A stretch of 59,125 nucleotides of DNA, counting the filler, from Catajapyx aquilonaris (lineage: Eukaryota): NCBI GenBank assembly GCA_000934665.2. It is 2 parts of 2 records of this genome, joined end to end, with 100 filler letters (N's around TTAATTAATTAA, not from the genome) between each part and the next. Parts side by side here need not be neighbours in the genome. Positions count along the whole stretch, not along the records: positions 29,640 to 59,125 come from JYFJ02004786.1; 1 more part is not named here. One strand, written 5' to 3'. How positions within the stretch are numbered: position 1 is the stretch's first letter; the number at the start of each line of letters is the position of its first letter. The notes beneath the pieces were generated by a model, which was not told the DNA's origin, made no database searches, and worked only from the letters and a program-made list of their open reading frames with translations. The position numbers and the translations under genes were made by a program. Shown in pieces: positions 7,568-59,125 of this stretch.

Positions 7568-7633
7568 CTAAATTTACACGAGAACAAATAAAAACCATGT
7601 TGCTTCCGAAGCTCCCATTCATAACATACTTAC

Positions 7634-8905: not shown

Positions 8906-8996
8906 CTGAAATGGAAATACTCCAAGCTGTCACTTCCACTTCCAAAGAAAGCATGGAATTGCAAAGCAGCACTTTTTTTCCAGAGACACTAATTAA

Positions 8997-29539: not shown

Positions 29540-29639
29540 NNNNNNNNNNNNNNNNNNNNNNNNNNNNNNNNNNNNNNNNNNNNTTAATTAATTAANNNNN
29601 NNNNNNNNNNNNNNNNNNNNNNNNNNNNNNNNNNNNNNN
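29540..29639. other. Assembly gap with artificial six-frame-stop spacer
   Basis: N-run, then TTAATTAATTAA, then N-run; 100 nt in total. Confidence 0.95.
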
Positions 29640-39879: not shown

Positions 39880-40545
39880 ATTTCTTTGGGCAGTTAAACA
39901 ATAGTACATCTTGCACTGGTTACAAAATACCCTTGATTTTCCTTTACATTTGTTCCACCTCACCTGCAACGACTTGCATTTCGATCACTTGTCATGATGG
40001 GTAAGTGTTGGTTCTTTAAGACTGCCTTGTAGGATGAAGGTACTACAGGCCTTCGCCTCTTCGTGGCTCTTGGCATCTCAGCATCATCATGGTCATCATC
40101 AGTTTCAGTACAGGTATCCTCTTCCTCTTCATTCATCAACATGAGTGCTTCTGCTACTGCAAATCGAAACTGTAAGAAGGACATAATGTCTTTCTTTCGC
40201 GTGCCCTGCATCTTGTTGTCCTGCCGATACAACAGCCATGCGTTGGCTAGGGATAAGTCGACAAAATGCATGATTACCCTCAGCGTCCACTTGCGTGTCT
40301 TATTCTTAATACGATAATAACTAATAAGCCTATCCACAAAATCAACCCCCCCCATCAGGCAATTGTATTTGTTGATGACATAACGGCCGTGGCACATTTA
40401 GGTGCTTTTTTTCCTTCTTGCTCCATCTCTTGCAAACGTCAGTTGGCTGCAATCCATACTCAGTAGAAGCTACAACAATAGCCCTATTGTCATGCCATTT
40501 AACTACAGACACTTCCCCATCATCCCTCACCACTTGTTCCATAGA
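39880..40545 (-). pseudogene. piggyBac (PGBD3-like) transposase C-terminal fragment
   Basis: VVKWHDNRAIVVAST...KRWSKKEKKHLNVPRP, then after a frameshift INKYNCLMGGVDFVDRLISYYRI...KW..RVIMHFVDLSLANAWLLY, then a decayed Cys-rich tail. Confidence 0.9.
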
Positions 40546-43298
40546 ACCTCGGCCCTTGGTATCACATCATTATGTGACAAGCAAAAACTTTGTATGACAA
40601 GTTACTCTGTTCAGAGAAGTGGCATGGTGCAAGCAAAATCCCTGTAAGTTGAGATACAATAGTACTTCAGTTTCATCACATATGTTTAAAAAATGATGAG
40701 GGGAGGTTGGTTTGGTTTGGTTTATTTGGAAGTAGCCAAAGCAACTACGGCAATCTGGCTATATGAAGAAGCAAAGGTGGGACAGATGGAGAGAGAAACG
40801 AAGAGGGAAAAGAAGGAGGAGGAGTTTGTGAAATATATTATTGAAGCAACATAACCAACCTTGCCTAATGAATCACATGTGACTTAAGGACAAAACCAAC
40901 ATCCTGCCCTTGACTTGTATGGAAGGACTTGATGGACGGCATGAAGAGGAGGCCTGTGGGAAGGAGGGAAGGGAAGGGCTTCAATCCCCCAACCATCAAG
41001 AGATCCCTTGCGGGGTACTGGCAGGGACGACGTGAGGGTAGCAGTTGGGAAGAAGACCCATGGGCCTGGTTGCCGCCATCATTTGAGATGACTAGTTGTC
41101 CTCGTTCCTGCCTCTGATAGTACAAATTGCTCGAAGAACAAGTCACATGTGTGAAATTATCAAGGGCTGGTTGGTTGTGTTGTTTCCTTTGCATAGGTGT
41201 CAATTCCTGTCTGGAGGTGCCAAGGTTGTTCAAAGGCCCCAGGCAGGAGTTCCAAGTTTTATTCAGTGCAATAGTCATTTCTCGAGGCAGAAGTCAATCC
41301 TGTTTGTATTTAAATTTGCCTCACATGTGACGGCCTACTGCTGGGTGATCAGGCAGTCTGAATAAACTGGATTTGTATTGCTGGGAGGGAGTAAAGAGTG
41401 ATGGGGGCAGCCTAGCAGCTTGAGCTTGCATCAGACTCTTCGACAGTATTACCGTCTAGTTGCATTCTCCCACTGCATCAAATTGGGAGCCTGTTTCTTT
41501 TTCACCAAGATGTTTCCAAAAGCAGTGTGGATGGCCACCATATTTTTATCTTGGTATAGTCTTGTTGACTAGTATTTACTCCAACAAGACGTTCCTTTCT
41601 GTGACTCTGCACTGGTTCACACCAGATGGGCAATTTCAGTGTAAAATACAGGTGGTTGCCCAGGTTTCTAGCATGGGAGGGACATTGCAGTACCAATACA
41701 TACACCAGTAGTTTGAAAACAAAATCAAGGACTCACCCAATTCTGACTTGCCAGCATGTGCGTGTTAGTCCATTGAACCGTGTTACATTGCACCAGCAAT
41801 GACCTGGTACAAAGAATTCCCACTTTTGCACAACACATGACTGTCTGACTATCTACAATAATATCACTTAGATAGTCTCAGGTGCAAACTTACTGTATGT
41901 CTCATTCAGGAGAATTAGCTTGTTTGAAAAGTAGTGCCCCTTAGTTGGTACTTTTGGCATAATGAGAGCTTTCTGTGTGCGAACTGTAATGAGGACATGC
42001 TCTGGATTTCACTGCATCTTCTTTTTCGAGACATCCAGCTAGGTGTCCCAATTGCTTAATGGGCTGGCCTTTGTCCTGTGGGGAAGTTTGATTGATTGAG
42101 AAGTTACTCCTCAGTGTACCATGCAGTCTCCAAGCAGGATTATTTGTCAAGTACAGTTACCAACTTCCTACGGCTCGGGACTGGATCAAGGAAGCCCAAC
42201 TCCTGGAAGAAGCTCCAGCTTGTGGTTTCGTAGCCAACGCTGCTGCTGCCACTTCCCCTCTTCTCCTTCTCCCGCATCAGCCTCATATATCTTTCCCGGG
42301 TGGCCTTCCTTACCCGAAAAGTGAAGGGTACATGGTGGTGAATCCACAATCCTACCTATTTGTTAAGGTTTTATGCCATTTTTGCAGGCAAAAGGTTTGC
42401 ACATGTTTCAAGCATGAAAAAAATTTTCTGTCATTCTTGACTAAAGTCGCAATGGCAGATGTCATGTCGTCATTCTCCATTGCCCTGAATCGTGCTTTGC
42501 CATGGATCCGCAGCAGGGCTCCTTTTTAGTGAAAATGTCACAAGTAAGTGCTTGGAAAGGTGTGGGGTAAGAATGGCACAGGTAAAACGTGGAAAAATAT
42601 ATTTAAATGGCACAATGGCTAGAAGCAGCTGGTTTATTGGAGAAATGGTTTGGTTACTCTGGTTGGCGTTGAACCTGTAATCAGAAGATATGGGGTTTCT
42701 GTTGCTTATGAATGACCTTGTTTGCATGTCATTTGTCGCTTCCTCATCTCATTATCCAAGTAATGCCTGAAGTTCTTGAAATTATCAATGCCCTTGTCAA
42801 TCATGTGGAGCACTTCACATTTGTTTGTTGGTCAGATGGGACTTTTTGTTCCTATGCCCATGGCATGGCATGAGCCATGATGGCGTGCCTAGTGAACGTG
42901 TTGGACAACTTCTGGAAGGGACACAATATGCGTTGTGGAACTTCCACTCGTAATCTCCCAGGCGATGCAATACTTACTAAACTTGGAGGAACGACATCTT
43001 TTGTGGGTAACCCGAGACAGGGAAAATGTCGTGCAAACTGAGTCTTGCCTTATTCCCGACTCCACTACTACCCACGAGGATGTGTATGAATACACAGCGT
43101 AAGTTTCAAGGGGTACATGCGTCATGCACTGCTGGATCAAGCAGATGCATGGTCATGCTGGCAGAATTCCACGTTTCCTCTCGCATAAGCTCGATATGGC
43201 ACTCAAATGTTTCTTTTCTAGGTTTTGATTATATGCATTTTTATTGATGAATGTTAATAATTGAAAAGGTTACAAAAATCAAATAACCCACGCACAAG

Positions 43299-44013
43299 TC
43301 ATCGACTTTCAAGGTAGTGGTCGACTTGGGCACCCGCTGAGTCAACACAGGCTTGCAGACGCAAAGCAACATTTTCACACGCCTTCCTGCACATGTCAAC
43401 CGGAACGTTGTTGAATTCCTGAACAATCACCTGACGCAAACGTTGCTCACTGTCAATGGGATTATAGTACACCTTATCCTTCAGGTAACCCCAAAGGAAA
43501 AAGTGTGGTGGGGTGAGGTCGAGTGAACGTACTGGCCACTCCATAGGCCCTCGACGGCCTCATCTCTCAACACAATGTTCCAGATAAGGTCAGGGTTGTC
43601 TTGAAACTTGGTCGGCATCAACTCGGCACACTCAAGTCGCCTGTCGAAGTCGTCCTCGTTAAGAGCATGAATAAGCCCTGGATGGTATGGCGTCAGTTTC
43701 ATGTCGCTCAAAACTCTCCGCAGACTTGTTCTGGAAATGCCCATCAGGGCCGACAAACAGCAGGTAGACTTGGATTTATCAGGAGAGGGTGCCAGTTCCG
43801 CAGCAACACGTGCTTGTGTGTGTGCAGTTCGGACAGTTCTCGGTTGACCGGGATGCTTGGGATACACAGCACTGGCACTTGCATCAAACTGCTTGTTGAT
43901 TCGGATGATTGTGTCCCTGTGGACTGCAGGCGGTCCAAATTCTGCCAGCATCCTGCGCTAGACTTCTGATAACGTTGTAAGTAACTGAGAAGAGGCGCAC
44001 ACACCTCACGCAC
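43299..44013 (-). pseudogene. Tc1/mariner-superfamily transposase relic
   Basis: G.PRTVRT..., GISRTSLRRVL..MKL.PYH..L.HALNEDDFDRRL, RDEA, then EWPVRSLDLTPPHFFLWGYLKDKVYY...RLQACVDSAG. Internally deleted and frameshifted. Confidence 0.88.
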
Positions 44014-44129
44014 TGCTCAATCGACAACCTTCTTCCTGCCGTGATGTTTTCTCTATCGACAACAAAGGGTAGGCTACTTCGGCCCTGTACCTTTGGATGA
44101 ATTGGTTATTTATTTGTTAATGATCAAAA

Positions 44130-44600
44130 ACTGCCTAATTGAGTCTGGCCCACAAAATTAGCAATGGCAGAAGGACCATAAAAAATTTGCAGGCGTATCC
44201 CACAAGTGTTGCAAAAAAGGAAATCTTGAGATTCCAAACAGCTGGAGCACACCTGTTCTGAAACTACCATATTCACCCCATGCAACCACGTGTTCTCGAC
44301 TGGTGGTGGTCCTGTGTGGTCTCCATATCAAAGAAAATATAGAGAAAGCTACAGTTATTGTTGTTACTTCCCCTTCCTCTCGGGCTGCCCACACCACGGT
44401 GTCAGCAGATGCTCAGGCACATACTTCTCCAGTGTGTGCAGCTCGGGTGTTGTATACTTCTGGATGTAACAAAGGTGACCTCCCATCACCATGGTCTTAC
44501 ATGCCTTGCAGTACCTCTCCCCACAACGGTGTAAAAAGCCTTGTTTTCTCTTCCACATATCCACTAGCATTGAACATTTTTTACACATAAATAGGGTTTC
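44130..44600 (-). pseudogene. Polinton/Maverick protein-primed DNA polymerase B fragment
   Basis: CKKC...HRCGERYCKAC...HLCYIQ Cys/His cluster, followed after a frameshift by YIFFDMETTQD (ExoI-like) and a degenerate AIANFVG (ExoII-like). Confidence 0.65.
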
Positions 44601-45799
44601 GCAAAGGGAGAGACTGGTTATACCGACTATTACTACCACTAGTATTAACCTAAGGTAAACAGGAAGTCAAATCCTATATCTTAAAATGCTCCACATACAT
44701 ACGCTCACTCCGGGATAGCAATGAAAACAGGATGATTATGCGTTCGATTCATTATATCATAGCCCTTTCGAGAATAATGTTAGTTTTTGCTACCTCTCTC
44801 AGTTCACTTAGACAGTTACAACAATGCAATATCTCAACATTAGTTGGTTGTTGTAGTTGTGTGATAGACTCCCACACATTGTGTTTGTTACTGGAATCTA
44901 TTCAGTTCAATGTTATTTCACATATTGGAAACAATTATTGCGACGAAAGTATAAGGCAGCTTGGGGTACATGGTACGGGAAGTGGAATATTGTAGGAGAT
45001 AAGGAACGGTGTGACATGGTGCGGAAATCAAGATCTCGAAGCGAGGCATGCGAGATGAGGCAGGCAGTAGTAAAGCAGCATTCTTTTCCTCTACTTGCTA
45101 CAATTTTTTTTCATCTTTCTCGCTCGTCCTCGCTGATTGGTAGAATGTATGTCCACAGAGAGTGCTTTGCTTTCGTAATAGACCTTGTCTTCACTAACAA
45201 CCTGAGCATGAACACTTGAAGCTCGCGGCACTCCTCCCACCAGTCGGCGTGTCCTCCTTCATTGGTAGCCCGCTCCAGCAAACTCCAAAGCTTCTTCATT
45301 ATTCCCCTTTCTAATAGCCATTTTCGATAACCTAACCTGAAGGCTTTCAATTATTGGGTAAGGACCACTTCTGCCAACTTCTCTGACGGCGCGATGCGAC
45401 CTCCATATATGTATGTTTATATGCCTTGCATGCTGAAAATGTCATCTCCCGGGTGTTGCTGGCTTCACTGGACGTGTCCTGAATCATAGCACGGCACTTG
45501 CTGCGGGCAAGGCATTTCCTAGCGAAGGGTGATCGGCAATAAGGTTGGAATTGCCATAAGTGTAACTTTACAGGAGACATGTTTATTTCCTTTGTCCAAA
45601 TACATGTAACAGAAAGGCCATGGCAAAATTCCGAGGAACACTGTCAGGCGTTCCAGGTAGGTGTGCACAAGTCCGAGTATGTAAAACGGCTAGTTACCAG
45701 ACAAAAAAAAAAAAAAAACCAAAGTTACCTGTACGCAATAACGTTGGAAGTGCCACATACCATTTTATGCAACAACGTGGCAAGTGCTATTTTATACAG

Positions 45800-46290
45800 G
45801 AACAGCGTTTCGGTCTGGGACAAGAGGGTATTGGACCAGGTCTTCAAAATATGGAATGGCCTCACCAGGAAGGTACCCCAACCACTTGCGGAAGTCCTTC
45901 TTCTTTGGCTCTGGCAGTGCTTGTGTCTTTTGGATCCGTCGCAAGTCTGCATCAGCGAAGGTCTGGACTGTCACTCCCTGTTTGAGGATTGTCACTTCAG
46001 TCCATTCCATAGCTTCATCCAGACATGTCTTGTAACTGACAGTCCCAAAGTTCGCAGTGTTAGCTTCAGAGTTGCAGCTGACTGGATTTTCAGGTTGACT
46101 GTGGCGAGATTTCCACGTGCGAGGTTCCCAAAAGCGATGAAATCCTCTTTTATTGTTGCTAGAAAAGGATGGGATGGCCGTGCTTGAAGTATGACATTCA
46201 CGAAATCCTTTGGTGTGAACATCTTGGACACCTTCCTTTTCTCCACGAGGGCAAAGTGGCGGTCGCAAGCTAGGTAGGAGTTCATTCCAC
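45800..46290 (-). pseudogene. Sola1-like DDE transposase C-terminal fragment
   Basis: SYLACDRHFALVEK.K...FTPKDFVNVILQAR..PF (compare GHSYLPCDRDF..IEK) and the terminal KKKDFRKWL.YLP.EA..YFEDL. Confidence 0.6.
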
Positions 46291-46492
46291 CTCTTCACAG
46301 CTCTTGATAGCGACCAGTGCCGCTCACTAAACTATGATCATAGGCTTTTGCACTAGTCCCATAGTCACACACTATAGCGCCGAAGCACTTTCACTTTTTC
46401 TTCATGTACAATTACATTAGCAGACGTATCTAAACTGTTCAACAAAAACTTATATCAGCTATTGCAGAGACTGCAGAATTGGAGCAAGAACG

Positions 46493-46708
46493 ATGCATAA
46501 TCAAAGACGTCAAAAATGTCAGGACTACAGAATCAAAGTGACAACGCCCAAACTTCAAGAGCGACTAGTTTTAGAATTAAATCAAGCATTTGCAAGGTTA
46601 AGAGAAAGGGAACCAAAATGCCCCACTTCTTTAAAAAGGTGTACGTACCCACCCATGGTAAAGACGTTGATAAAAGTATTAAATTATTATGATGATATTA
46701 TTAAGTAG
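46493..46708 (+). other. Short ORF with an HLH-like pattern
   Basis: ERLVLELNQAFARLREREP...VKTLIKVLNYY resembles bHLH helix 1 (LN.AF..LR...P) and helix 2 (TL..A..Y). The basic region is poor. Confidence 0.35.
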
Positions 46709-47411: not shown

Positions 47412-47690
47412 TTAAAACTTGCTCGGACTGTACCTATCTGGTGCTTTGTGTGTACGTTCACTACGCCTGGGATTTTGATGATAGTCAACTGCGTCCAACT
47501 GTACCAAATCATAGGCAACTCGAGGTTCATTTGCCTGAGGGGCTGGTGTGGCAGGAACCACATTAGGTCGTACTGCTTCAAAAGCTCTGGCCGGAGGTGG
47601 CCCAGCAAATCCTCTCACAATACTGCACTCATCTGGATCAAAGTACATATTTTCTGCCACAGAATGCCTACTAACCGACCTTGCCTTTTC
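47412..47690 (-). mobile_element. Gypsy-type pol C-terminal tail fragment
   Basis: Ends PRRSERTHKAPDRYSP-stop, the RRSxRxxKxPxRY tail common in Ty3/Gypsy integrases. Confidence 0.5.
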
Positions 47691-47847
47691 TGCTCTACGT
47701 GGCCCAGCCGGAGTGACCTGAGGGGTCACCACCTGATCACTACCCTTGTTATAACTTGTTATAATTATATATATAATTATAACAAGTAGGTTGCTCTTCC
47801 CGGCGTTAAATTGCCCAATCCTTAGGTCCGATTGGATTTCAGACATT

Positions 47848-48200
47848 TTAAAGCTTTACCCGTATCTGCTCCCGCCGTCGCGTCCAAGCCGGGCAACCGC
47901 TAGCCCATACTGGATGATCCGTCTCGGGGAGTCCCATGGCCTTGCACAGCACGCAGGTGGGCACCCCACCCTTGTACTGGCACTGCCAGGACCCGTGCGC
48001 CCCGGCACAAAAGCCACACCGAGGTGCGGCTCGGCACGGGCGGCCCCTGTTGGACTGGGCCGAGTGCTCGAAGGCACTGCAACGGAAACATCGGTCTGGG
48101 ATCGCCTCTACCCGGCAGGAGATCAGGTCGACGACCAGACTCCCTTCGGAAGTTAGCGACAGGTACAGTGTCGGGGACAGCTCCAACCGCCAATTCACTC
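47848..48200 (-). mobile_element. Non-LTR retrotransposon ORF1 (gag-like) zinc-knuckle fragment
   Basis: Three knuckles in the I/Jockey/R1 ORF1 arrangement: RCFRC..FEH, CGFCAGAH....C, and CVLC.......DH......CP. Confidence 0.75.
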
Positions 48201-48429
48201 TCGCTCCCTTCTGGCACGGCCGCGACGACACCGCCGGCAGGTGGTTCGTCAGCGGCAAGAAGTCGGCAAAGAGGCCCTATGGTGTTTTGAAACAATGACA
48301 GCATTTCAAGCGGCCTAGCCTTAACCTTCTCTGCGTCCACAACAGGAGACACCTGAGGCGAGGGGGTGTCCGGAGTTTTGATCATCGTTTCCTGCCTATA
48401 GTTGACCGGTGTGTTGACCCTTCTATCCC

Positions 48430-49901
48430 TTAATTCCCGGTTGAACAAGGAGGGTGATACTCGTTTCCCGAGCTAGGCACCATTGCTAGTTCTTGTCCAG
48501 GAGGACACTGGCCACTATACATAGGATTTCCCCCAGGTGCAAAACTAATCTGAGGCACATATTCATACCAGTAGCTCTCGCCTCTGCCTTGAGCGGACAC
48601 ATCACTAATTTCAGTCATGCTCCCTGGCGGTCCAGAAGAGTACACTTGCCTACCTGGTACCTGCATTGCATACCCCTTTTCCTGATTCTGAGGGCAATGA
48701 GCCTTCCAATGCTTCCCTCCACAATTTGGACAAGGGTAGGGTGGGTCCCTAACCTGGCCTTTCATTGGACACCTGTTGATAAAGTGGTCTGTACTTCCAC
48801 ACCTAAAGCAAGCACCCGTTGCCTTCTTGGGCACCTGAGGACATTGCGGAAGCAAATGCTGATCTGAATTACATCTATAGCAACGTGGCTTGTTCCTATT
48901 TGCTTTCGGTCTAACCCCACTTTTTCCTAACTCATCCTTGACCTGGAGAGGAGCAACCACCGCCTGTTTGGCTTCCTCCCACTTCTTTGTTGCCTCCAAC
49001 CACTTCTTTGTTGCCTCCAACTGATACTCCTCCAGTTGATTGTAAGCATTGCCACCTTGTCTGTCAACTGGCCTACAACATCTATATCATCATTCTCACA
49101 AGCCAACAATACCCTATTTCTCGGCTTGGTTCCTATCAAACCGCTCTTCTCATTGGCCTCACACTCTAATGCTATCCTAATAGCTCCTGAGAAATTGGCT
49201 GGCTTCAGAATTTGCAATGTGTGCCGTGTCCTTTCTAACTGCAATCCTGACCTGAATTGTGACAGTACTAACAGCTCTACAGTCACTATATCCTTGGGAG
49301 CATCCCTACACCCCTGTAATTCCAGTTGCATCTTTCGAAACTCAGTCACAAATTCATTAACACTCTGGGCCACTTCTTGCCTTATGCCCTTAACATCCCC
49401 AATGAGTTCCGAGAACCTACGGCTAGGACTAAACCTCTCCAAAAACAAAGCCTTGAATTTATCCCCGTCTCTTGCTGTTTGCACTTCTGGAGTAAACATG
49501 GCAAAGTCAGCAGCAATGCCTCCCAGCTTCAATTTCACACATCTGATTTTGTCCTCGCCTGACCACAACGACATGTCTCCTGCCAATTAAATCTGCTCCA
49601 AAAATCCCCTGGCAGATTCAGACGGCATGCCTTCAAAGCCACGAATCGACATCATCATACTTGTGTTAATCTTACTATGCGCCTGATGGTCCCTATCATT
49701 CAGCTCTTGGTTTCCCAAATTCGGCTGCCGGAGCTCCCTACCATTATGCTCATTGTTGCCATTGTTGGTCCCATTCCCAACCGTCTCCTCCTCAGTTGCA
49801 GCCGGGAACTGCCATAATTCCAAACTCTCTAAGTCAAGCAAATTAACACCCCTCTGAGAACCTGCCATTTTGAAGCTAACTTTCCTCCCGTCACTACACA
49901 A
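48430..49901 (-). pseudogene. Ty3/Gypsy gag, disrupted by one in-frame stop (49587-49589) and one frameshift (about 49020)
   Basis: Capsid-like FEG...ARGFL / F.ALFLERF / QSVNEF..E / F.SGL, and CCHC knuckles CYRCNSDQHLLPQC, CFRCGSTDHFINRC and CPNCGGKHWKAHC. Confidence 0.85.
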
Positions 49902-50186
49902 AATTATCTCTTGCAGTTGCAGTACTGCCTAGCCTCTGCCTATCCCTACCCTGAGGAAAAATGGTGCATTAATCCTGAGGAAGAAAATCCATTAGCTCAC
50001 CTCTGTGGTTGAGAAAATTCACTAACTCGAACAATTTAACACTTGACTCATTACGAGTTGAACCACACCCTCCAAATCTGCATCACCTCACCACAACGCA
50101 TAAAATGACCAAAACACATATCCTGGTCACGGCACAAATTGTGGTAGGCAAGGGACAAACAACCAAACTCACTACTGTTGAGAGTC

Positions 50187-50215
50187 CCCAGTGGCCTCCT
50201 ACCAAAGTTGTGACA
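50187..50215 (-). promoter_or_regulatory. Putative LTR 3' edge and primer-binding site of the Gypsy element
   Basis: The minus strand reads ...TGTCACA actt TGGTAGGAGGCCACTGGG about 300 nt upstream of gag: a CA end followed by a TGG-starting PBS. Confidence 0.45.
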
Positions 50216-50689
50216 AGAGTGATGCAGGGTTGGAAGAAATGTAGTCGACAAGTTTTGCTCTTTTCGAAACCAAATTATTATGCCAATAAATTTCCAACAC
50301 AATTACATCAATTTAAAAATCAGTGAAGTTTACACATGAGAACTTCTCAACAACCACAGCTTACACACAATACGCTGGTTTCCCGACGGCCAGAAATCCG
50401 TCTGGTGTAGCCCGCTTCAGCAGGAAGCCTTCCTGCATACAACTTGGACCTCAGTCGGCTCGGGATGGTCCCTCATGGTAGCGTGGTTTCCTCCCTCCTT
50501 TCTTCCGCCATCTTGGAAGTCTTTCCGCCATCTTGTGTCAGGGGCGACCATCTTGGTATCTTCTCACGAGACGCGTAATTTGTGGAGGGAAGGGTTTACA
50601 AAAGATTCTCCCGGGGTGACTGGACCACCCAAACCTATTCAAGCCACATCGGCACCCAATAGTTTTTGCAACCTACGACCACTCCTTTT

Positions 50690-50910
50690 GTAAAAAAATA
50701 ACTCGACTCAGTTCGAAAGTAAACACCTGACTGCTCTTGAAATTCTGTGCAGGAACGAATTCATCAGGGTCATTTTTGTAAGATGCAACATAGCGGGCAA
50801 GAGCACTTTTAGATAATCCGAGATCGGCAGCAACAACTCTCACGGATTTTCCATTTTGCACAACTTCCTGTACTGCACGGCGAATTTCTGCCTTCCAGTT
50901 AGACGCTTAT
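50690..50910 (-). pseudogene. pogo/Tigger-like transposase N-terminal HTH (psq-type) fragment
   Basis: NWKAEIRRAVQEVVQNGKSVRVVAADLGLSKSALARYV...QVFT.E. Confidence 0.65.
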
Positions 50911-52445
50911 ACACACGGCCCATCACGTAGGCTACAAAAATGCAAACAGTATTGTAAGAAATTGGCCAGCCATCTAATGAATAACCTAATAAAACGAGCA
51001 GAACTTAATTCGTCATGATGTCGGGAGGAATGGGACGTCCCATACCTCACTGCCCTGCTTTGTCCCATTCCTCCCGAATAGCTCAAAATTGTAAAAATGG
51101 CTGGCTTGCTTTTACAGAAGGAAGCATGGCAGACTATCATATCCAGCTTTATCTCAGGAAACATACACCATCCCACAGCCCCTTGTTCGACAAGTCTATC
51201 TGCATTATATGTACTTCAAACTGCATTCAAACATTATAACAAAAACTTGCTTCTTAATGGCCAAATCACTTATTTTATACCAGGCTGAAAACCTCTTCCA
51301 CTAACTCACAAGCTCAGACTGGAGTTGATGCCTAGTGACACCTACCAGCCACCAAGTGCGAACTTGCTAGCACAAGAAAGCTGAAGGTGTCCCATACCTC
51401 CCCCGTCCCATACCTCCCGACTCTCCCCTATTGTTCCAAAGCTCCGACTAGGATGAGTGCGGGCACGAAGCCCCCCCTCCTTAAATACGTACATCACGCC
51501 ACTAGGCGGCACCACAGACGAGGTCGCGGGGGATGAATGCCGAAACCACACACTTGGTCCCGCCCCCACTTAAAAAAAAACTTGAAGCGACACCGCTCCA
51601 ACGCACCTTAAAACAATTTCAAAGAGCACAAGGACACTGCCTAAACAAGTTCAATCCGTGCACTATCAGGCACAAAAAGTTCAATCCGACGGCAGCACAC
51701 ACAGCAGCGCTGCACCACCTTACTCCTGCATGACCCGTTCTTCATCCGACGTAGAAACGTCGTCTGGCCGGCCATCCCCAGCGACGTTGTCACCAACCAG
51801 ATTCCACCCCGGAATAGGCGGAGGCACCGCAGACGAGGTCGCGGGGGATGAATGCCGAAACCACACGCGTGGTCCCGACAATACCGAGCAATGGCGCTTG
51901 GAGGTGTGGCTTGAAATTCTGGTGTCTGGTGCGGGCCACTCCATTGTTAGGGGTTTTCCAGGAAGTGGTTCATTCTGCATGATTCCCTCCGCAGTGGCAT
52001 AGCATTCGACACGCTTTGCTGACATATTTACGAAGTGCTTCCTGAGATCACGGTCTCGCGAAACATTTCTCTGCTGGAAGGCATACTCGCATGGCAGCTT
52101 GTGCTGATCCCAGAGTAGACTGGCAACAGTGTGCGTCCATCGTCTTTGTGGCAGAACATGCACCCCCCTTGCGCTTTTGGAACGGTCACCACACTTGTAG
52201 GTTGATTCAGTCAGTCGAAGTTCCTCCCATATATGCGGGGTGATGTCACAATGAAGGTCTTCGTCGGCCTTACTGCAGTCTGTCCAGAGTCACTGCTGTC
52301 ACTGTACTTTTGCACATCTTCAGACTCCGAGTCGCTGACGAGGGTGACGGTGTCTGCTTGTATCCCCAGAAGTGCCTGAAACTCCGTCCTTACATCCCAC
52401 CGGTCCTGTCCTCATTCACGCAGACCCTAGCATACTTGGGTGTCA

Positions 52446-53005
52446 TCAAACCATCCAGGAGTTCACTAATATCATGTAGTTAGCCGGGGGAACTGGACTG
52501 CCATCACTCTGTAGGATACCCTGGACCTCATGAAGAACGCTCAGAAACTTGTCCGCCGTCGAGGTCAATTGTGGATTTGCTGCAGCTTGGAGGTCTTGGG
52601 CTGTCTCGGCCCCCGAAGTACTGGCAGTAACGGCAGCAGGTAAATCGGAGGTGGTTGCACCCCCTAACGATTCCTGCGCAGTGCTCACAAGTGCTTCCAG
52701 CTGCCCGACTCCCTCTTGGAAAGTAAGAACGAGCGTCGGAATTGCGTTCGCAAAGTTCTCCAGGCCCTGGGCAGCTGATCCTATCGTCGCAGCTGTCTGG
52801 CTCGTGATCTCGGTTAACGATGCAGTCGAGATGATGGAAGAGGCTGTCGTCGCAGTTACAATCCTTGTCGCTTGATTCACTGCTCTGGCGACGCTGGCGC
52901 TTTTCTTTGCCGCTGTTGTTATCGACGCCGCCCACTTGTCCAACGTCGACTGGCCGCTTAGCGGAGGTGGCTCGAACCGGGGTTTCTTGGCTGGTGGTCC
53001 ATCCG
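52446..53005 (-). CDS. Parvoviral NP/NS2-like ORF overlapping the NS1 3' end (predicted second exon)
   Basis: Open alternative frame DGPPAKKPRF...LDKWAAS...WMV-stop with no ATG near its 5' end, preceded by acceptor tttcaatag at 53006-53014. Confidence 0.6.
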
Positions 53006-54405
53006 CTATTGAAAGTATACAGATACATGCGATTCCTAAGTGGTTGCTCCTGGGCCGTACAATAATGCCAGGGATAATGATTACAGGTTATGATAATAGG
53101 AGTTCTAGGAAGGGTTTGGGACCCCTTGTTCTTGATGGCAATGGACGCGGGCATGCCTTCAAAGATGAGTTTGCACGTTTCGGCCGTCTGGATGTTAATG
53201 AGAGGCTCTTCCCAGAATGCAATGTCCGAGTCCAGGGCGTTCGCGAAGCTAAAGTGATTTTCGTTCAGGAGCTCTCCGACTTTAAATAATCCCGTGAGGC
53301 CCCGTATGAAGGCGGATTTGCCGGTATTACTTGGACCGTATAGACAGATGACATTTTGTTTGGTATCGTCTTTCTGAATCCACCGCGCAAAGTCAAAATC
53401 GAAGTCGTCTGTATTAATGTCCTGGTGCTCCAGAACCGCGTGGATGGTACTTGGATCCGCCGAGTATTTATCGAGGATATGTTTTACCGATCGCCCGGTA
53501 TGTTCCTGACGCAGGTATCGACGGCAATTGTCTACTACACCATGCTGATTTGGATAGGCCACGTATTGCATCGCGAATGCGGGATCTACTTTGCATATGG
53601 TGTCAAAATCGTGTGCTCGATGTTCTCGCATGATGCTAATAACTTTGGTAACAAGCGGATTAGTTTTCTTTTCGGTCGGATCCCATAATGCTTTTCCCGA
53701 TCCCGCGCCGCTAGCCATGTATGCCATGTCTATGAGCTGTTCGCTGGTTGTAAGCACCTGTATAGGCTGTTTCACGATGTATTTGAATATTCCCTGGAAG
53801 CTATTGACCCGCTGCTGTTTGATCGCTCCTATTATGCCGCAAGCCGATGCCTTGCCCCAAATGCGACGATGCCATGCGTCCGTGCGCATGGCCGTTTTGA
53901 CAAGGGCGTGACAGTGGTATTTACCGCGGTCGTTCACCTCTGTTACCATAATGTATGTTTCCAGATGGGGGCCGTGATTACCCATGAGGGTTAAAATAGT
54001 CTCGAAATCCAGTATGTCATCTATGTTATCGTATTCCATAACAACGCTAAGCCAGTCTTTGGAATTGTATTCCTGGAATGCCTCGTCCATATTTATGTTC
54101 CACTCGCCCGCCCAATCAACGCGTTCCAGGCCCGTCCCTAATCGTCCATTGTCATCAAGAATGTGGCAGCGATGGAGCCAGGGTGACCCGAGCAAATCCT
54201 GCTCAAGAGTGGGTAATTTTCCTCGGACGGGATTTCGAACAATCGGTACCACTGGAGCCCTTGGATTCCCAACCCCGATATCAGCCCCCTCAGCGTCGCC
54301 GTCTTGTATTGAGTCGGCAGATGAACGAGCAGCAGCTCCGGCGCTAGTGGGACTACCTTCGCTCCAACCAAGAACCTTAGAACGCCCTCGATGTCTTCCA
54401 GGCAT
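52528..54405 (-). CDS. NS1: Endogenous parvovirus NS1 replicase (Hamaparvovirinae, chaphamaparvovirus-like), intact 625-aa ORF from the first ATG
   Basis: HUH endonuclease (GKYHCHALV; FKYIVK) and SF3 helicase (Walker A GPSNTGKS, Walker B FWEEP, motif C IIITCN, plus FEGM...K.K...LPRTP and YPW.YCT..E..LRNRM). Confidence 0.93.
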   Translation of the reverse strand: MPGRHRGRSKVLGWSEGSPTSAGAAARSSADSIQDGDAEGADIGVGNPRAPVVPIVRNPVRGKLPTLEQDLLGSPWLHRCHILDDNGRLGTGLERVDWAGEWNINMDEAFQEYNSKDWLSVVMEYDNIDDILDFETILTLMGNHGPHLETYIMVTEVNDRGKYHCHALVKTAMRTDAWHRRIWGKASACGIIGAIKQQRVNSFQGIFKYIVKQPIQVLTTSEQLIDMAYMASGAGSGKALWDPTEKKTNPLVTKVISIMREHRAHDFDTICKVDPAFAMQYVAYPNQHGVVDNCRRYLRQEHTGRSVKHILDKYSADPSTIHAVLEHQDINTDDFDFDFARWIQKDDTKQNVICLYGPSNTGKSAFIRGLTGLFKVGELLNENHFSFANALDSDIAFWEEPLINIQTAETCKLIFEGMPASIAIKNKGSQTLPRTPIIITCNHYPWHYCTAQEQPLRNRMYLYTFNSGWTTSQETPVRATSAKRPVDVGQVGGVDNNSGKEKRQRRQSSESSDKDCNCDDSLFHHLDCIVNRDHEPDSCDDRISCPGPGELCERNSDARSYFPRGSRAAGSTCEHCAGIVRGCNHLRFTCCRYCQYFGGRDSPRPPSCSKSTIDLDGGQVSERSS

Positions 54406-54512
54406 TCGGACAGTTTCTTGGATGACCCGGTGCACTGGACAAGAGAAAGAATGATAGTGCACGTAGATTGGGGTTCGCTAGACATGGAGGCCATGCGTTT
54501 TTTAGCGGCCAT
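54138..54512 (-). CDS. Small 124-aa parvoviral ORF overlapping the NS1 5' end (p15-like position)
   Basis: ATG-initiated and stop-free. Size and position match the small ORF overlapping the NS1 start in chaphamaparvoviruses. Homology not verified. Confidence 0.55.
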   Translation of the reverse strand: MAAKKRMASMSSEPQSTCTIILSLVQCTGSSKKLSECLEDIEGVLRFLVGAKVVPLAPELLLVHLPTQYKTATLRGLISGLGIQGLQWYRLFEIPSEENYPLLSRICSGHPGSIAATFLMTMDD

Positions 54513-54820
54513 GAGTACTCACTGTCTTTAGGCTTTGAGGTTGTTGACCTCGCGGGCAACTCCCGATTGGGATTATTGTGACGCCACAGAAGATATGTGC
54601 GGATGTTTCCCAGTTGCTGCGCCGCCCACTGCGTTTCTACAGTCCAGGTTCGCAGAGGCTCCGGGCTGTCCAATATATCCTGCCACACACGTAACTGTTC
54701 TTGAAAACCCAAATCCGGATTGAAACTGTCTGCTAAATCCGGTAAGTATTGTAGATGCCGATACCCGACGTTGACGTAATAATCTCTTATAGCTCCGGAC
54801 TGTTTGGGGTTTCGAGCCAT
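54377..54820 (-). CDS. First parvoviral ORF (147 aa unspliced; 54523-54820 is the predicted first exon of NS2/NP)
   Basis: ATG directly after the CAGT initiator; internal donor GACA|GTGAGT at 54522. Confidence 0.55.
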   Translation of the reverse strand: MARNPKQSGAIRDYYVNVGYRHLQYLPDLADSFNPDLGFQEQLRVWQDILDSPEPLRTWTVETQWAAQQLGNIRTYLLWRHNNPNRELPARSTTSKPKDSEYSWPLKNAWPPCLANPNLRALSFFLLSSAPGHPRNCPNAWKTSRAF

Positions 54821-54854
54821 ACTGGCCGTGTAATCTATGTACTCCCTTATATAG
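54821..54854 (-). promoter_or_regulatory. Viral core promoter (TATA plus Inr)
   Basis: Minus-strand TATATAAG at 54853-54846. CCAGT initiator with its A at 54823, 30 nt downstream, abutting the ATG at 54820. Confidence 0.65.
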
Positions 54855-55072
54855 CCTTTATCGTGTGTGGTGCCGTGCTAGCCGCGGGTTGCCCGTCTAC
54901 TAGGGGTCGGTATCTACAATACTACACATACACACAGGCACGCCGAAGGAGGGGACCAGAGAGGGCCTCCGGTCGTACACTGAAAGCGAGATGTAAGAGG
55001 GGCTCTGGCAAGGGTTTTTAGACAAGGGGGTGGTAGCGGTGAGGGAGCGGACAGGGATTGGAACGAGTTCAA

Positions 55073-55384
55073 TCAAGGGTCTGCGGGGGAGGGGAGGGGG
55101 GAGGACCAGGCGGAGCTTGGCGGGGAGGAAAGGTGGAGGAGGAGGAAGGGGCCTGCTGCTGGGTGGTGGGCGGCGGCCTGGCGAACCAGTTCTTGATGCC
55201 AACGCTTGGCAGCCTCCAGTCGGATGACCGCTCGGAGTGCCACCTGGTTGGAGTACTCCCGGTCAATGGCTTCCTGGGCAGCGTCGGCGGCGATCTGGTC
55301 GGAGTTTTGCTGCCGCTTCTTAGCCCGGGTCTGTTGGCCGCCCCGGCAGCCCCGCTTTGTCTTGTTGGTCTCTCCTTTTGGCAT
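55073..55384 (-). other. Basic 103-aa ORF of unknown function
   Basis: ATG start, KRGCRGG basic N-terminus and helical-looking middle. No family recognised. Confidence 0.3.
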
Positions 55385-55978
55385 GGGTGAGGGGGCCTTA
55401 GCAGCCCGAAGGCGCTTAGGTGGGTGTGTGTGGTTCGGTGGTTCCCAGCTGCCCGAAGGCGCTTAGGTGGGTGGGAGAGGAGGCTGAACGTGGAAGATCA
55501 AAACAAAGGCGAAACAACACCTTCTTTTCTCCTCTTAACTTCGGCTCTGGCTTCTACTACTGCTATCAGACTCTTGCCTGAGCCTGGCCCAACTAGCTCT
55601 CTGAAAAGGGGTTCTATCTGCAAGGATAGATCCAGAAATTCAGGACCACAATGTATTTTCACTCAGTCCAATACAATAAGGACCGGCTCCCACCGAGCCC
55701 GGCCCCCAACTGCCCTTTTTCCCTCACTCCAGAGTATAGAACAACTCCCGGTGGGAGGAACATCAGGATGGGGGGGAACACCGGCGCGCGCAGCCACACC
55801 ACCGCGGCACCCCCACACAGTCACATACTTGGCTAACCCCCATCCTGATAATTCCCCCCGCCAATACAAGTGCGAAAGCACACATGGACATGCATACAAA
55901 AGCAACACCCAGCACACACTGGCAACTGCACGTCCCTGTGTCCTTTTTTTTCTTCTTCTTCTTCAACACCGGCCCCCG

Positions 55979-56626
55979 CTACTCCTGATCGCGGAGAATG
56001 GCCTCCTCCTGATCCTCCATCTCCTCTACGTTCCCGCCGTCCTCGTCCAGGAACCGGCCCGGGGTCGGTGGTGGCTGCTTCCTCCCCTCCGCCAACTCCC
56101 GCAGCCGATGCACCTCCATACGATACTGCAGAGCGATGCTGGTAACCTGGCCGACCAGCATCTCAGGAGATACCGCAGGTCCTCCTGGCGAGATGCCGAG
56201 TAATGCGAGGGACGCCCTTTGCTCTTCCTGTTGCGCCAGGCGCCTCTCCTCCTCCAGCCTCTTTCTCGCTGCAAACATCTGGGTCTTCCTCCACTTGAGG
56301 TAGGCCCCCGGTGCCAAGTTATGCACCAGGGGCTCCTCCGGCTCCACCAGGACCAGAACCGGACCAGGTCCATCGTCGGCCTCCTCCTCCTCTTCTGCAG
56401 TCCGGTAACTGGTCCCCGCTGGCGCCGTGCCCTCCCTCGGGTGTGAGCAGGGCAGGTCCTTGGCGATCTCACGGGCCACCGCCATCCTGGAGAACAGAAA
56501 GTCCCGCTCCACAAAAGTGTGGCCCACCAACACAGAGCCGCCCATTTTTCCTCTGCTTCCCTCCACGGCTCCGGGAATGAGCCCGCTCCCGGGAGGAAGA
56601 TGGCCCTCTCTTGCCACCACCCCCAC
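55979..56626 (-). other. Charged, coiled-coil-like ORF of unknown function downstream of the integrase
   Basis: 215-codon open frame with ARKRLEEERRLAQQEEQR and acidic tracts. No family recognised. Confidence 0.3.
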
Positions 56627-57441
56627 GCTGCCCCTTGGCGGCCCCGCTGTAAGTCTTCTTGGAACCAGAAATTTCTCCAGTCATGGTGCCAGCCATCCTG
56701 CTCAGTAGCAACTTTGCAAGTGAGAAAAAGGATGCTGAGAACCGAGCTATATCAACCCACTCCTCCGTGGTGACCAAGCTCGCCCCGCCCCCGTTCTTCT
56801 CATTCGTCAATAAGCAAATAAAGAAAAAAAAGGGGGTGACAAGTGGTCCAGAAACGACTTCTGAATCATCGAGTCACCCTCCGACATGTATCCGGAGGAC
56901 ACCTGCAGTTCTCAACGGCTTCTTCTCCCCCTTCCTTCCACAAGTCACACAGGTCAACCACCCTTTTTCAACTTCTGGAAGCGGGGGTGTGGATAGGAAG
57001 TCCACCTGACACCCTACCCTCCCTTCTGATACGACCCCGCCCTACCCAGAAGGGTCCCCTTTCTCGTTCCGTGAACGGGTTTTGGGGTAATCGCGGGTCA
57101 AGGGCCTCGACCCTTGTTCCCACCATCATATGCCGCAGGACTTTTCTTTTCGTAAACGAAAAGTAGTGGGGCATGGCCCTCATCACCAACCCCCCCTTTC
57201 CGATAAGTCGCGTTAAGCCTTCAACCCTTCCTCGGCTTATCAACATCCTGTAACCAGGAGTGTGGCCGGGTCGCCCCCAAACCATCCCCCTCGTTTCCTG
57301 GTAGGCTTCCCCTACCCAAAAACAAGTTGCCTCTATTTTCGACCCGAAAACAGAAACTTGTCATTCAAGGACGCCAACCCTTGCTCCAACAGCCAAAATG
57401 CGTGTGAACCCACATTCTTACCCCCCTCTTTTTTTTCTTTT

Positions 57442-58899
57442 TCAGATGGGGTCTTTTTTTTCTTCCGCCCAACCGGGAGGAAAAAAAAAAATGCGAGTAA
57501 CTCCACGGTATGCACCGCGCATTACTTTCTCNTACTTTCTCACAACGGCACCCCGCGGGGGCACATATTTCTTTAAGTCCGAAATATGAATTGGTCCGAA
57601 AACCTTTTTCGTGACCGGGTTATGCAACATGTATGAAACATCATGCACACGTTTAACCACGTCGTATGGACCATCATACTTATGCGCGAGAGCTCGTGTG
57701 AACCCTTGCGCCGCGTTTGATAGCGCGTGACATTTACGCAGTACCAAATCACCAACATTAAAAATGCCATGTCGTCTTTTGCGATCATAATATTTTTTCT
57801 GTTTTTTCCGTTCCGCAATAATGCGGGCACGTGCAAATGCAATTGATTTCGCCATACGGAGTTTTAGACCGTCTGCATAATCCCGCACCTGCTCCTCTGA
57901 TGCATTATCTACTGCCTTAAGATATTGCGACTCAAACGGGAGGAGGAACTGCCTCCCTGTTGCTAATTCAGCGGGGGAGTAGCCACTCACAATGGATGGT
58001 GATGAACGCCATGCGTACATTACCGACCCCAATGTCTTACACCAATCATGATGCTCATGAGTGTAAGCGATTAACAGCCGTTTAATTTGGCTATTTACCG
58101 TTTCTGTCATGTTTTGCCATGGGCTGTATACGTTCGAAAACGATGCTTTTATGCCCAACGCCGCACATGTTGACATGAATATTTTCCCGCGGTAATACTT
58201 TGCATTATCACCAATTAATCTTTTCGCGTAACCATGATGCGTACAGAAGTCTACCAAACACTCAGTAACCTGAGTCCGAGCGCATACTCTCGTTAAAGGG
58301 TATGCCTCAAACCATTTTGACAGCTTACATACGATCACCAGTATGTATTTCTTGCCCCCTTTGCTGCGCACCAGGGGGCCGATGACGTCAGTGGCAATGT
58401 CGGCAAATGCTTGGACAGGTGGCTCGCTTGGTTGCAACAACCCCGGAGGCTTACACCTATCCACCGTTGTCCTCTGGCAAAGGTCGTATCGCTTCGTGAA
58501 GTTCATTACATCTTTTTTCTGGCCGATCCAAGAAAACAGGTGCCTCATGCGTTTGATCGTACGGTACGATCCCCAGTGTCCAACCTTATTGTCGGAATGA
58601 TAAGCATGCATGACCTTGTCCCTCATTGCCCGAGGAACAATGACCTTGAACGGGTTATAATCTGGCGAATTACCAGCTTTTTCACCCCCGGGGATATACT
58701 CAGCAATGAGCCCGGAATTATTGATCAGGTACATGTGCTGGTCCGTCTTAAGTCTCGCAATGGCACCTGCGTCCATTTCCACGCCGCGGGCTCCTTGTAG
58801 GTGCTCCCGCAGCGCTTTTAAATCTGCGTCAACTTTTTGACATTCCAGCAATTCCTTGAGATCAATGCCCCCAGTCCCCTCGTCACGGAGTGGAGACAA
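57442..58899 (-). mobile_element. Ty3/Gypsy integrase region (pol 3' part)
   Basis: Zinc-binding YH...GHWG...YDLCQ (first Cys replaced by Tyr). Catalytic DIATDV / GDNA / MTE. C-terminal KYDGPY.V...HISDLKKY. Confidence 0.92.
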
Positions 58900-59125
58900 G
58901 ATGGCGTCGGAGCAAGATCAGCTCTAACGGTCGCTCTTCCGGCAGTCTTGGCGACAGGAGACGAGGGACTTGTTTGGTCCTCGTGTCTGTGCTGGTGGCA
59001 CTCCGGTGGCCCCGACGTCCTTTTGGAGATCCGTCCCGCCTCGGGGCGCGAGGGGACGGGGTTTTTGTGCCCCTTTTTGGGCCTGGGCCTAGTGTGTTTT
59101 GTTGTTGTTGTGGCAGGGGGAGAGA

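What the first reader, a model, noticed from the sequence alone, without database searches (positions are those of the whole stretch)
39880..59125. Co-oriented graveyard of unrelated transposons and viruses: candidate uni-strand piRNA cluster
The piggyBac, Tc1/mariner, Polinton pPolB, Sola1-like, Gypsy tail, LINE ORF1, Gypsy gag, pogo, parvovirus and Gypsy integrase fragments are all on the minus strand. They are truncated and closely spaced, with no host exons seen and few of the MITEs that fill the left 39 kb. Established: flamenco-type clusters accumulate antisense TE and EVE fragments. Inference: a plus-strand precursor would yield antisense piRNAs, including against NS1. Caveat: weak plus-strand remnants exist at 41.4-43.1 kb and 46.5 kb.
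Basis: inference. Interest (0 to 1): 0.75.

Follow-up and report, generated by a model that had tools for sequence, protein, structure and literature searches.

The report
Same-strand transposon and virus graveyard
A 19-kb stretch of an arthropod-type genome holds remains of several unrelated jumping genes and one parvovirus gene that all point the same way, as in loci that make silencing small RNAs, but it could equally be a long intron and no RNA data could be brought to bear.

Summary
The co-orientation is real but rests on fewer fragments than claimed. Seven independent coding remnants in 39.9-59.1 kb have E-value support, all on the minus strand: piggyBac end, internally deleted Tc1/mariner, an unnamed repeat ORF, Gypsy-type gag, a transposase-type HTH, a chapparvovirus-like NS1 (plus part of NP) and a Gypsy-type integrase. 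A LINE-ORF1-like zinc-knuckle ORF is a lead. 'Polinton pPolB', 'Sola1' and 'Gypsy tail' found no support. No plus-strand coding remnant was found anywhere in the window. Two-sided binomial p is 0.016 (7 of 7), modest given how many windows were scanned. MITE-like hairpins stop at the boundary (0 against 20). NS1 and the integrase are long open frames with undepleted CpG, so the block holds young as well as old insertions. A plus-strand Ig-like exon with clean splice sites lies 11 kb upstream, so the block may lie in an intron or readthrough path of a host gene, which predicts the same orientation. This scan had already flagged at least eight similar loci elsewhere in the same genome. Verdict: plausible uni-strand piRNA source (about 0.4), not shown.

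The parts
39963..40566 (-). piggyBac transposase remnant (C-terminal part only)
   Evidence: Pfam DDE_Tnp_1_7 E 7.2e-6, profile 300-349 of 349, on ORF 39963-40397. The stretch up to about 40566 in another minus frame was read by eye only (printout).
43302..44057 (-). Tc1/mariner (DDE_3 type) transposase gene with internal deletion of the catalytic middle
   Evidence: 24 relatives, best E 2.4e-36, carrying DDE_3, DUF4817 or HTH_Tnp_Tc3_2; tblastn covers residues about 2-162 and 272-357 of 360. Sleeping Beauty SB100X, E 0.05.
45801..46294 (-).
   Evidence: 3 short relatives, E 1.5e-5 to 7.7e-4; tblastn E 9e-37, 7e-11 and 3e-10, in two minus frames. No family name from any tool.
47851..48276 (-). 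LINE-ORF1-like zinc-knuckle ORF (lead only)
   Evidence: Atlas: arthropod clusters at 0.92-0.93, zf-CCHC on 11-23% of members, an X-element nucleic-acid-binding protein cluster at 0.88. No Pfam hit and no PDB hit.
48433..49928 (-). Gypsy-type gag (capsid, then zinc knuckles), with no pol behind it
   Evidence: Retrotrans_gag E 5.1e-5, Ty3_capsid 5.5e-4 and zf-CCHC 9.3e-4 on adjacent minus ORFs in the canonical order. The N-terminal ORF 49590-49928 was read by eye only.
50676..50906 (-).
   Evidence: HTH_Tnp_1 E 1.1e-5, 25.9 bits against cut-off 24.1. One search finds it again. The PDB hit 8vd6 is a designed five-repeat HTH protein whose score sums weak repeats.
52449..54477 (-). Endogenous chapparvovirus-like element: open NS1 frame (first Met at 54405) with an overlapping NP-like frame; no VP found
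   Evidence: Parvo_NS1 E 1.1e-18; 17 relatives, best a chapparvovirus NS1, E 5.3e-58, 33% identity; nuclease and helicase motif columns kept, conserved C-terminal tail absent. PDB NS1 and Rep helicases, about 1e-10. NP matches 52700-52551, E 1e-6 and 5e-7; VP has no match.
57445..58917 (-). Ty3/Gypsy-type integrase, 491 open codons, close to the window end
   Evidence: Integrase_H2C2 E 3.5e-12, rve 3.1e-10, SH3_Tf2-1 5.3e-7. CpG observed/expected 1.03.
28242..28523 (+). Ig-like host exon upstream of the block (282 nt, AG acceptor, GTGAGT donor, phase 1-1)
   Evidence: Lep_receptor_Ig E 2.3e-4, Ig_2 5.2e-4, ig 0.024, all below cut-offs. Splice sites read.
39880..59125 (+). Putative plus-strand transcription unit (inferred, not observed) antisense to all remnants
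   Evidence: Inference from orientation only. No RNA evidence.

Best explanation
The block from about 39.9 kb to at least the window end is a trap-like zone. Insertions of unrelated transposons and one parvovirus have been kept over a long time only when they lie antisense to plus-strand transcription. That transcript enters from the left, either from its own promoter or as part of, or readthrough from, the plus-strand Ig-like gene. It most likely serves as a uni-strand piRNA precursor, giving small RNAs antisense to the elements, including the NS1 gene. Shown here: the co-orientation, the sharp change in repeat type at the boundary, and the mix of old and young insertions. Inferred: the transcription, its direction and the processing into piRNAs.
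For: All 7 independent remnants with E-value support are on the minus strand, and so is the LINE-ORF1-like lead. No plus-strand Pfam hit of E <= 0.01 appeared in 39-59 kb among the 86 plus ORFs or in the read-through frames. The two weak plus hits among the 71 plus ORFs (E 0.02 and 0.043) are at chance level. The two-sided binomial gives 0.016 for 7 of 7 and 0.008 for 8 of 8. The remnants come from at least six unrelated groups. The Gypsy gag lies downstream of the Gypsy integrase on the minus strand, so the two cannot be one element (coordinates). ORFs of 150 aa or more number 12 minus against 5 plus. MITE-like local inverted repeats stop at the boundary, 0 against 20. Ages differ: CpG observed/expected is 0.47-0.72 in most blocks but 1.02 in NS1/NP and 1.03 in the integrase, the two long open frames. 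This suggests repeated capture in the same orientation over time. The literature read gives the pattern. [quoted passage not shown] A flamenco-like cluster in Aedes has TE-EVE hybrids on one coding strand (PMC7161354, passages). Mosquito core clusters carry antisense EVEs and are driven by readthrough from upstream genes (10.1101/2022.08.22.504762, abstract). Earlier notes of this scan report at least eight other co-oriented graveyards in the same genome (unchecked AI notes).
Against: No RNA evidence of any kind was obtained. Only 7 or 8 fragments carry the test. About 1245 windows of this genome were read, so some 7-of-7 runs are expected by chance. The content is mixed, with DNA transposons, a LINE-like lead, gag, integrase and an EVE. 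It is not dominated by Gypsy/ERV elements as in flam-like clusters (PMC10643416). Poly(A) hexamers show no strand asymmetry: 9 on plus, 8 on minus. Only 19 kb is visible. A plus-strand exon upstream gives a simpler cause for the same orientation. No promoter was identified.
Confidence: 0.4

Rival explanations
1. Ordinary long intron, or 3' readthrough region, of the plus-strand Ig-like gene. Sense-oriented insertions were purged because they disturb splicing or termination, leaving antisense ones, and the locus has no special small-RNA role.
For: The exon at 28242-28523 (+) has a pyrimidine tract and AG acceptor, a GTGAGT donor, 282 nt and phase 1-1. It has three Ig-family Pfam hits, E 2.3e-4 to 0.024. 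An internal exon needs a downstream partner. None was found by Pfam in the 30.6 kb to the window end, so the next exon may lie beyond the block. Antisense bias of LINE and LTR elements in introns is established in mammals (PMC3088655, passages; PMC3517506 and PMC1794541, abstract starts only).
Against: The Ig hits are below the Pfam cut-offs. The fold model was useless (pLDDT 40.7) and PDB gave nothing. No downstream exon is known. The reported intron bias is partial, not all-or-none, and that paper excluded DNA transposons from its orientation analysis. With an assumed 65% antisense share, 7 of 7 has probability 0.049 (the 65% is my assumption, not a measured value). The intron model does not explain why MITE-like hairpins stop at 39.9 kb. 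This rival is compatible with piRNA production from an intron.
Confidence: 0.3
2. Chance co-orientation of a handful of independent insertions in ordinary TE-rich intergenic DNA, picked out because very many windows were read.
For: Only 7 supported fragments, giving p = 0.016. About 1245 windows of this genome alone were read. Three claimed fragments are not supported. Poly(A) hexamers are symmetric.
Against: No plus-strand coding remnant was found anywhere in the 59-kb window. The long-ORF asymmetry points the same way. Old and young insertions share the orientation. Other notes from the same genome describe loci with 20 or more co-oriented fragments (unchecked), which chance cannot give.
Confidence: 0.2
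3. The fragments did not arrive independently. A pre-assembled mosaic, such as a segmental duplication, a large composite element or a capture product, was copied here as one unit, so the orientation counts as one event. A misassembly would have the same effect.
For: No genome is held, so copy number could not be checked. Junctions between fragments carry no recognised target-site duplications, but I did not look for them systematically.
Against: CpG depletion differs strongly between blocks, 0.47 to 1.03, as expected for insertions of different ages. The block has almost no internal repeats: 1 direct family and 0 local inverted pairs. There is no assembly gap inside the block apart from a single N at 57532.
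Confidence: 0.07

Closest known systems
flamenco and flam-like uni-strand piRNA clusters of Drosophila (PMC10643416, passages read)
   Same: Remnants of unrelated elements held in one orientation. The region has no genes inside it and begins downstream of a genic region. Sense insertions are thought to be selected against.
   Different: Flam-like loci are defined by enrichment of Gypsy/ERV elements, spans of tens to hundreds of kb, one-strand piRNAs and a mapped promoter. Here only 2 of 8 remnants are Gypsy-type and DNA transposons and a parvoviral gene are mixed in. Only 19 kb is visible and no RNA or promoter data exist.
Aedes aegypti flamenco-like 'EVE cluster 38' (PMC7161354, passages read) and mosquito core clusters driven by readthrough (10.1101/2022.08.22.504762, abstract read)
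   Same: TE and EVE pieces lie on the same coding strand. The expected transcript is antisense to them. It could be driven by an upstream gene on the transcribed strand, here the plus-strand Ig-like exon.
   Different: The mosquito EVEs are mostly from RNA viruses, and those clusters were defined from small-RNA and chromatin data. Here the EVE is a DNA-virus gene that is still an open frame, and nothing is known about expression.
Chapparvovirus-derived endogenous parvoviral elements of arthropods (PMC6631224, passages read)
   Same: An NS1 gene nearest to chapparvovirus NS1 (33% identity), with the overlapping NP frame typical of that lineage, embedded in host DNA. That paper lists some elements with no stops or frameshifts.
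   Different: Most described elements are degraded. This one keeps 649 open codons and the conserved nuclease and helicase columns, and it lacks VP. The passages I read do not mention placement of such an element in a co-oriented TE block.
Antisense bias of transposable elements in introns (PMC3088655, passages read)
   Same: Elements lie antisense to a host transcription unit. A plus-strand exon lies upstream.
   Different: That bias is statistical and was described for mammalian LINE and LTR elements. No downstream exon is known here.

Membership tests
Uni-strand (flamenco-type) piRNA cluster | TE and virus remnants overwhelmingly in one orientation | tested here: met
   7 of 7 supported remnants plus 1 lead are on the minus strand and 0 on plus. 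p = 0.016.
Uni-strand (flamenco-type) piRNA cluster | 24-32 nt, 1U-biased small RNAs mapping to one strand only | not testable with these tools
Uni-strand (flamenco-type) piRNA cluster | One long precursor transcript from a defined Pol II promoter at the 5' end | not testable with these tools
   There are no RNA data, and the promoter scan on offer is bacterial. The only candidate source is the plus-strand Ig-like gene upstream.
Uni-strand (flamenco-type) piRNA cluster | Length of tens to hundreds of kb | tested here: inconclusive
   At least 19.2 kb. The block runs off the right end of the window, and no genome is held.
flam-like cluster in the strict sense (van Lopik et al., PMC10643416) | Enrichment of Gypsy/ERV elements that carry the strand bias | tested here: not met
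   Only gag and integrase, 2 of 8 remnants, are Gypsy-type. The rest are piggyBac, Tc1/mariner, an HTH, a LINE-like lead, an unknown repeat and an EVE. No env was seen.
Endogenous parvoviral element, chapparvovirus lineage | NS1 with HUH nuclease and SF3 helicase homologous to chapparvovirus NS1 | tested here: met
Endogenous parvoviral element, chapparvovirus lineage | NP frame overlapping the 3' part of NS1 | tested here: met
   tblastn of NP from two IMG/VR genomes matches 52700-52551, E 1e-6 and 5e-7, inside the 213-codon overlapping frame 52449-53087.
Endogenous parvoviral element, chapparvovirus lineage | VP gene downstream | tested here: not met
   No VP match better than E 0.2. The element stops near 52.45 kb.
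Endogenous parvoviral element, chapparvovirus lineage | Flanked by host DNA, so it is integrated rather than a contaminant | tested here: met
   It lies in one 59-kb stretch with DNA ligase exons and TE remnants on both sides.
Polinton/Maverick protein-primed polymerase B | Match to DNA_pol_B_2 or to pPolB proteins | tested here: not met
   No Pfam hit. No relative among longer proteins. Atlas best 0.83 with no family. Nothing in viral contigs.
Tc1/mariner transposon | DDE_3-type transposase homology | tested here: met
   The central part of the catalytic domain is missing, so the gene is defective.
piggyBac transposon | DDE_Tnp_1_7 domain | tested here: met
   above the curated cut-off. Only the last 50 of 349 profile positions match.
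Intron of a plus-strand host gene | Upstream exon with a donor site on the same strand | tested here: met
   Exon 28242-28523 with a GTGAGT donor and Ig-family hits below cut-off.
Intron of a plus-strand host gene | Downstream exon beyond the block | tested here: inconclusive
   No further plus-strand exon was recognised up to 59125. The sequence beyond is not available.

The most novel reading that the evidence does not exclude
The block is an active trap that recently captured a chapparvovirus-like NS1/NP segment in antisense orientation. It would then supply heritable piRNA-based immunity against a circulating hamaparvovirus. Because NS1 is still an open frame with its catalytic columns, the same insertion might also be expressed as a protein from the minus strand. 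One locus would then give both an antisense small-RNA source and a possibly co-opted viral replication protein.
Probability: 0.1. Interest if true: 0.6.

Novelty: new member of a known kind. Interest (0 to 1): 0.3.

Why it matters
If the block makes plus-strand piRNAs, it would be one more uni-strand cluster outside flies and mosquitoes. It would be built largely from DNA transposons and would hold a young, still open parvoviral NS1 gene. That makes it a concrete place to test whether DNA-virus insertions give heritable small-RNA immunity in arthropods. The scan has flagged several such loci in this genome, so a single small-RNA data set would settle them all at once. If it is only an intron, it is an ordinary result of selection against sense insertions.

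Tried and rejected
RNA evidence: the look-up of sequencing runs on window:42000-51999, kind rna, gave 'no RNA holder listed'. Notes of other agents speak of transcript evidence elsewhere in this genome, so a shorter query might have listed runs.

Whole genome: none is held, so copy number and flanks could not be examined.

Smaller batches added nothing beyond the ORF scans. The stretch 54.4-57.4 kb was scanned only as ORFs.

pPolB: no support from Pfam, a search among longer proteins, the Atlas or viral contigs. My own by-eye impression of a zinc-rich pPolB N-terminus is therefore dropped.

'Sola1': the full HMMER scan gave only 3 short unnamed relatives.

'pogo': only a generic transposase-type HTH is shown. 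The PDB hit 8vd6 (E 3e-11) is a designed five-repeat protein and the score is a sum of weak repeats.

Inverted 103-nt arms at 38846-38948 and 40713-40815 flank the piggyBac remnant. They do not look like piggyBac ends (my recollection of such ends, not a test). I treat them as two copies of a short repeat.

Ig-like exon: the AlphaFold model had pLDDT 40.7 and was not used. PDB gave nothing. Earlier findings by sequence gave nothing.

GC-rich stretch 54.5-57.4 kb: no Pfam hit and no PDB hit for its 233-codon minus ORF. It remains unexplained.

Poly(A) hexamer asymmetry as a proxy for plus-strand transcription: none, 9 against 8.

Rfam and tRNA scans of the window found nothing. Tandem repeats: one trivial array.

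Short ORFs of 38-61 aa (144): 6 hits at E 0.013-0.043, about what 144 queries give by chance.

Full report
WHAT WAS CHECKED. The window is 59,125 nt with four runs of N. No whole genome is held for it. I scanned stop-to-stop ORFs against Pfam in several sets:
- Right part, ORFs of 62 aa or more: 150 of 152. The two dropped lie left of 39.3 kb.
- Right part, ORFs of 38-61 aa: 144.
- Read-through frames with X at stops for 40.4-46.2, 46.0-49.0 and 49.6-52.6 kb.
- Left part, ORFs of 68 aa or more: 150 of 152, the last two by position left out.
- Plus-strand ORFs of 36-67 aa in 24-39.9 kb: 92.

THE OBSERVATION. In one search, 8 of the 150 ORFs had a Pfam hit at E <= 0.01. All 8 are among the 64 minus-strand ORFs and none among the 86 plus-strand ones. 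Placing 8 hits at random gives that split with probability 8e-4. With the 6 credible hits it is 5e-3. ORFs of one element are not independent.

The credible hits are:
- a piggyBac C-end (39963-40397);
- a Gypsy-type gag with zinc knuckles (48433-49586);
- a transposase-type HTH (50676-50906);
- parvovirus NS1 (52531-54477);
- a Ty3/Gypsy integrase (57445-58917).

DUF7044 and DUF2564, at E about 0.009, are probably noise.

Pfam missed the Tc1/mariner remnant. Its 86-codon ORF (43302-43559) found 24 relatives (E down to 2.4e-36, up to 78% identity) that carry DDE_3, DUF4817 or HTH_Tnp_Tc3_2. Local tblastn places residues about 2-162 and 272-357 of a 360-residue relative at 44057 to 43302 on the minus strand. 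It is an internally deleted gene, not an end-truncated one.

These align at protein level on the minus strand. It is therefore a coding remnant of unknown family.

The zinc-knuckle ORF at 47851-48276 resembles arthropod clusters, including an X-element ORF1 cluster, in the Atlas. It has no Pfam or PDB support, so it is a lead only.

'Polinton pPolB' failed every test. 'Gypsy tail' (47415-47855) has no hit. The 'weak plus-strand remnants' were not detected by anything.

HOW STRONG IS THE BIAS. Seven independent remnants with E-value support are all on the minus strand, giving a two-sided binomial p of 0.016. With the LINE-like lead it is 0.008. The remnants belong to unrelated groups. On the minus strand the Gypsy integrase lies upstream of the Gypsy gag, so these two are separate insertions. 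ORFs of 150 aa or more are 12 minus against 5 plus in the block.

The caveat is the look-elsewhere effect. About 1245 windows of this genome had been read. A 7-of-7 run will therefore turn up by chance in some TE-rich windows.

Against pure chance, earlier notes of this scan describe at least eight other co-oriented graveyards in the same genome, some with 20 or more fragments. These are unchecked AI notes.

THE BOUNDARY. The left 39 kb differs in kind from the block.
- It holds DNA-ligase exons on the minus strand (DNA_ligase_A_N, E 9.4e-15 and 1.8e-9).
- It holds many MITE-like hairpins. There are 20 local inverted-repeat pairs of 40 nt or more within 1.5 kb in 10500-39879 (one is an N artefact), against 0 in 39880-59125.

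OLD AND YOUNG TOGETHER. CpG observed/expected is 0.47-0.72 in most blocks and 0.68 in the left part. It is 1.02 in the NS1/NP block and 1.03 in the integrase block. These two blocks are also the long open frames, of 649 and 491 codons. I infer that these two insertions are young and the others old. This rests on the usual reading of CpG decay, which I did not test. If so, the same orientation was kept across insertions of different ages.

'Graveyard of truncated fragments' is thus only partly apt. The integrase frame ends 208 nt from the window end, so its element may continue beyond it.

THE VIRAL PIECE. NS1 is nearest to chapparvovirus (Hamaparvovirinae) NS1 proteins: 17 relatives, best E 5.3e-58, 33% identity. 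It matches solved NS1 and Rep helicases at about 1e-10.

In the alignment the conserved nuclease and helicase columns are kept. The first Met (54405) aligns with the starts of relatives. The conserved C-terminal tail is absent.

Two chapparvovirus-like genomes from IMG/VR have NS1, an overlapping NP and then VP. Their NP matches 52700-52551 in the overlapping minus frame (E 1e-6 and 5e-7). Their VP finds nothing. The element is therefore NS1 plus part of NP, without VP.

Chapparvovirus-derived elements are known from arachnids, myriapods and hexapods, and a few have no stops or frameshifts (PMC6631224, passages).

THE RIVAL RAISED BY THE FLANK. At 28242-28523 on the plus strand lies a 282-nt exon with a pyrimidine tract and AG, a GTGAGT donor and phase 1-1. 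It has three Ig-family Pfam hits below cut-off, at E 2.3e-4, 5.2e-4 and 0.024. That phase 1-1 is typical of Ig-domain exons is recalled knowledge, not a call.

An internal exon needs a downstream partner. None was recognised in the remaining 30.6 kb. The block may therefore sit in an intron, or in the readthrough path, of a plus-strand gene.

Selection against sense insertions in introns gives antisense bias (PMC3088655, passages). In mosquitoes, readthrough from upstream genes drives piRNA clusters rich in antisense EVEs (10.1101/2022.08.22.504762, abstract).

The intron and cluster readings predict the same orientation and are not exclusive. Only RNA data can separate them. With illustrative shares that I assumed, 7 of 7 has probability 0.049 at 65% antisense and 0.48 at 90%.

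WHAT COULD NOT BE DONE. Poly(A) hexamers are symmetric, 9 plus and 8 minus. Rfam, tRNA and tandem-repeat scans were empty or trivial.

COMPARISON AND VERDICT. The layout matches uni-strand clusters such as flamenco and flam-like loci (PMC10643416) and the Aedes flamenco-like EVE cluster (PMC7161354). EVEs, with Parvoviridae prominent among them, are enriched in arthropod piRNA clusters (10.1101/396382).

Of the defining features only the orientation was tested and met. The Gypsy/ERV dominance of strict flam-like loci is not met. Small RNAs, precursor, promoter and size are untested or open.

My estimates are:
- plus-strand piRNA source, about 0.4;
- plain intron or readthrough region without a small-RNA role, about 0.3;
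- chance, about 0.2;
- a mosaic copied as one unit, or an artefact, under 0.1.

If real, it is a new member of a known kind. The same scan has already reported the same kind of locus elsewhere in this genome, so interest is modest.

Noticed in passing
window 52449-54477 (-): The chapparvovirus-like NS1 is a 649-codon open frame with the conserved nuclease and helicase columns kept and CpG observed/expected 1.02. Most of the window is CpG-depleted. This points to recent integration or selection on the protein.
   Followed up: partly
window 28242-28523 (+): A clean 282-nt phase 1-1 exon with Ig-like (Lep_receptor_Ig, Ig_2) signals below Pfam cut-offs. No partner exons were recognised in the window.
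   Followed up: partly
window 4603-4989 and 6375-6584 (-), 7633-10304: These are DNA ligase N-terminal exons on the minus strand. Upstream of them are four diverged copies of a unit of about 170-270 nt (families D2, D4, D5, D15) that may be repeated acidic or lysine-rich exons or a local tandem duplication.
   Followed up: no
window 25752-26665: A near-perfect long hairpin. Arms 25862-26125 and 26293-26556 are 100% complementary over 264 nt and are extended by 110-nt arms at 99%. It is a very young foldback or MITE, or a possible hairpin-RNA source.
   Followed up: no
window 54478-57444: A GC-rich stretch (57% GC) between NS1 and the integrase, with long ORFs on both strands (233 and 241 codons minus, 270 plus). 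No Pfam or PDB match was found and its identity is unknown.
   Followed up: partly
window 51505-51562 and 51820-51877: The only direct repeat inside the block: two 58-nt copies, 93% alike, 315 nt apart. Nature unknown; there is no tRNA or Rfam match.
   Followed up: no
window 43302-44057 (-): The mariner remnant is 77-78% identical at protein level to a predicted termite protein (Cryptotermes secundus). This is high for a dead copy and hints at a widely shared or horizontally spread family.
   Followed up: no
window 29540-29639: Two 44-N runs flank TTAATTAATTAA. This is an assembly gap or masked stretch that the repeat finder reports as a palindrome.
   Followed up: no
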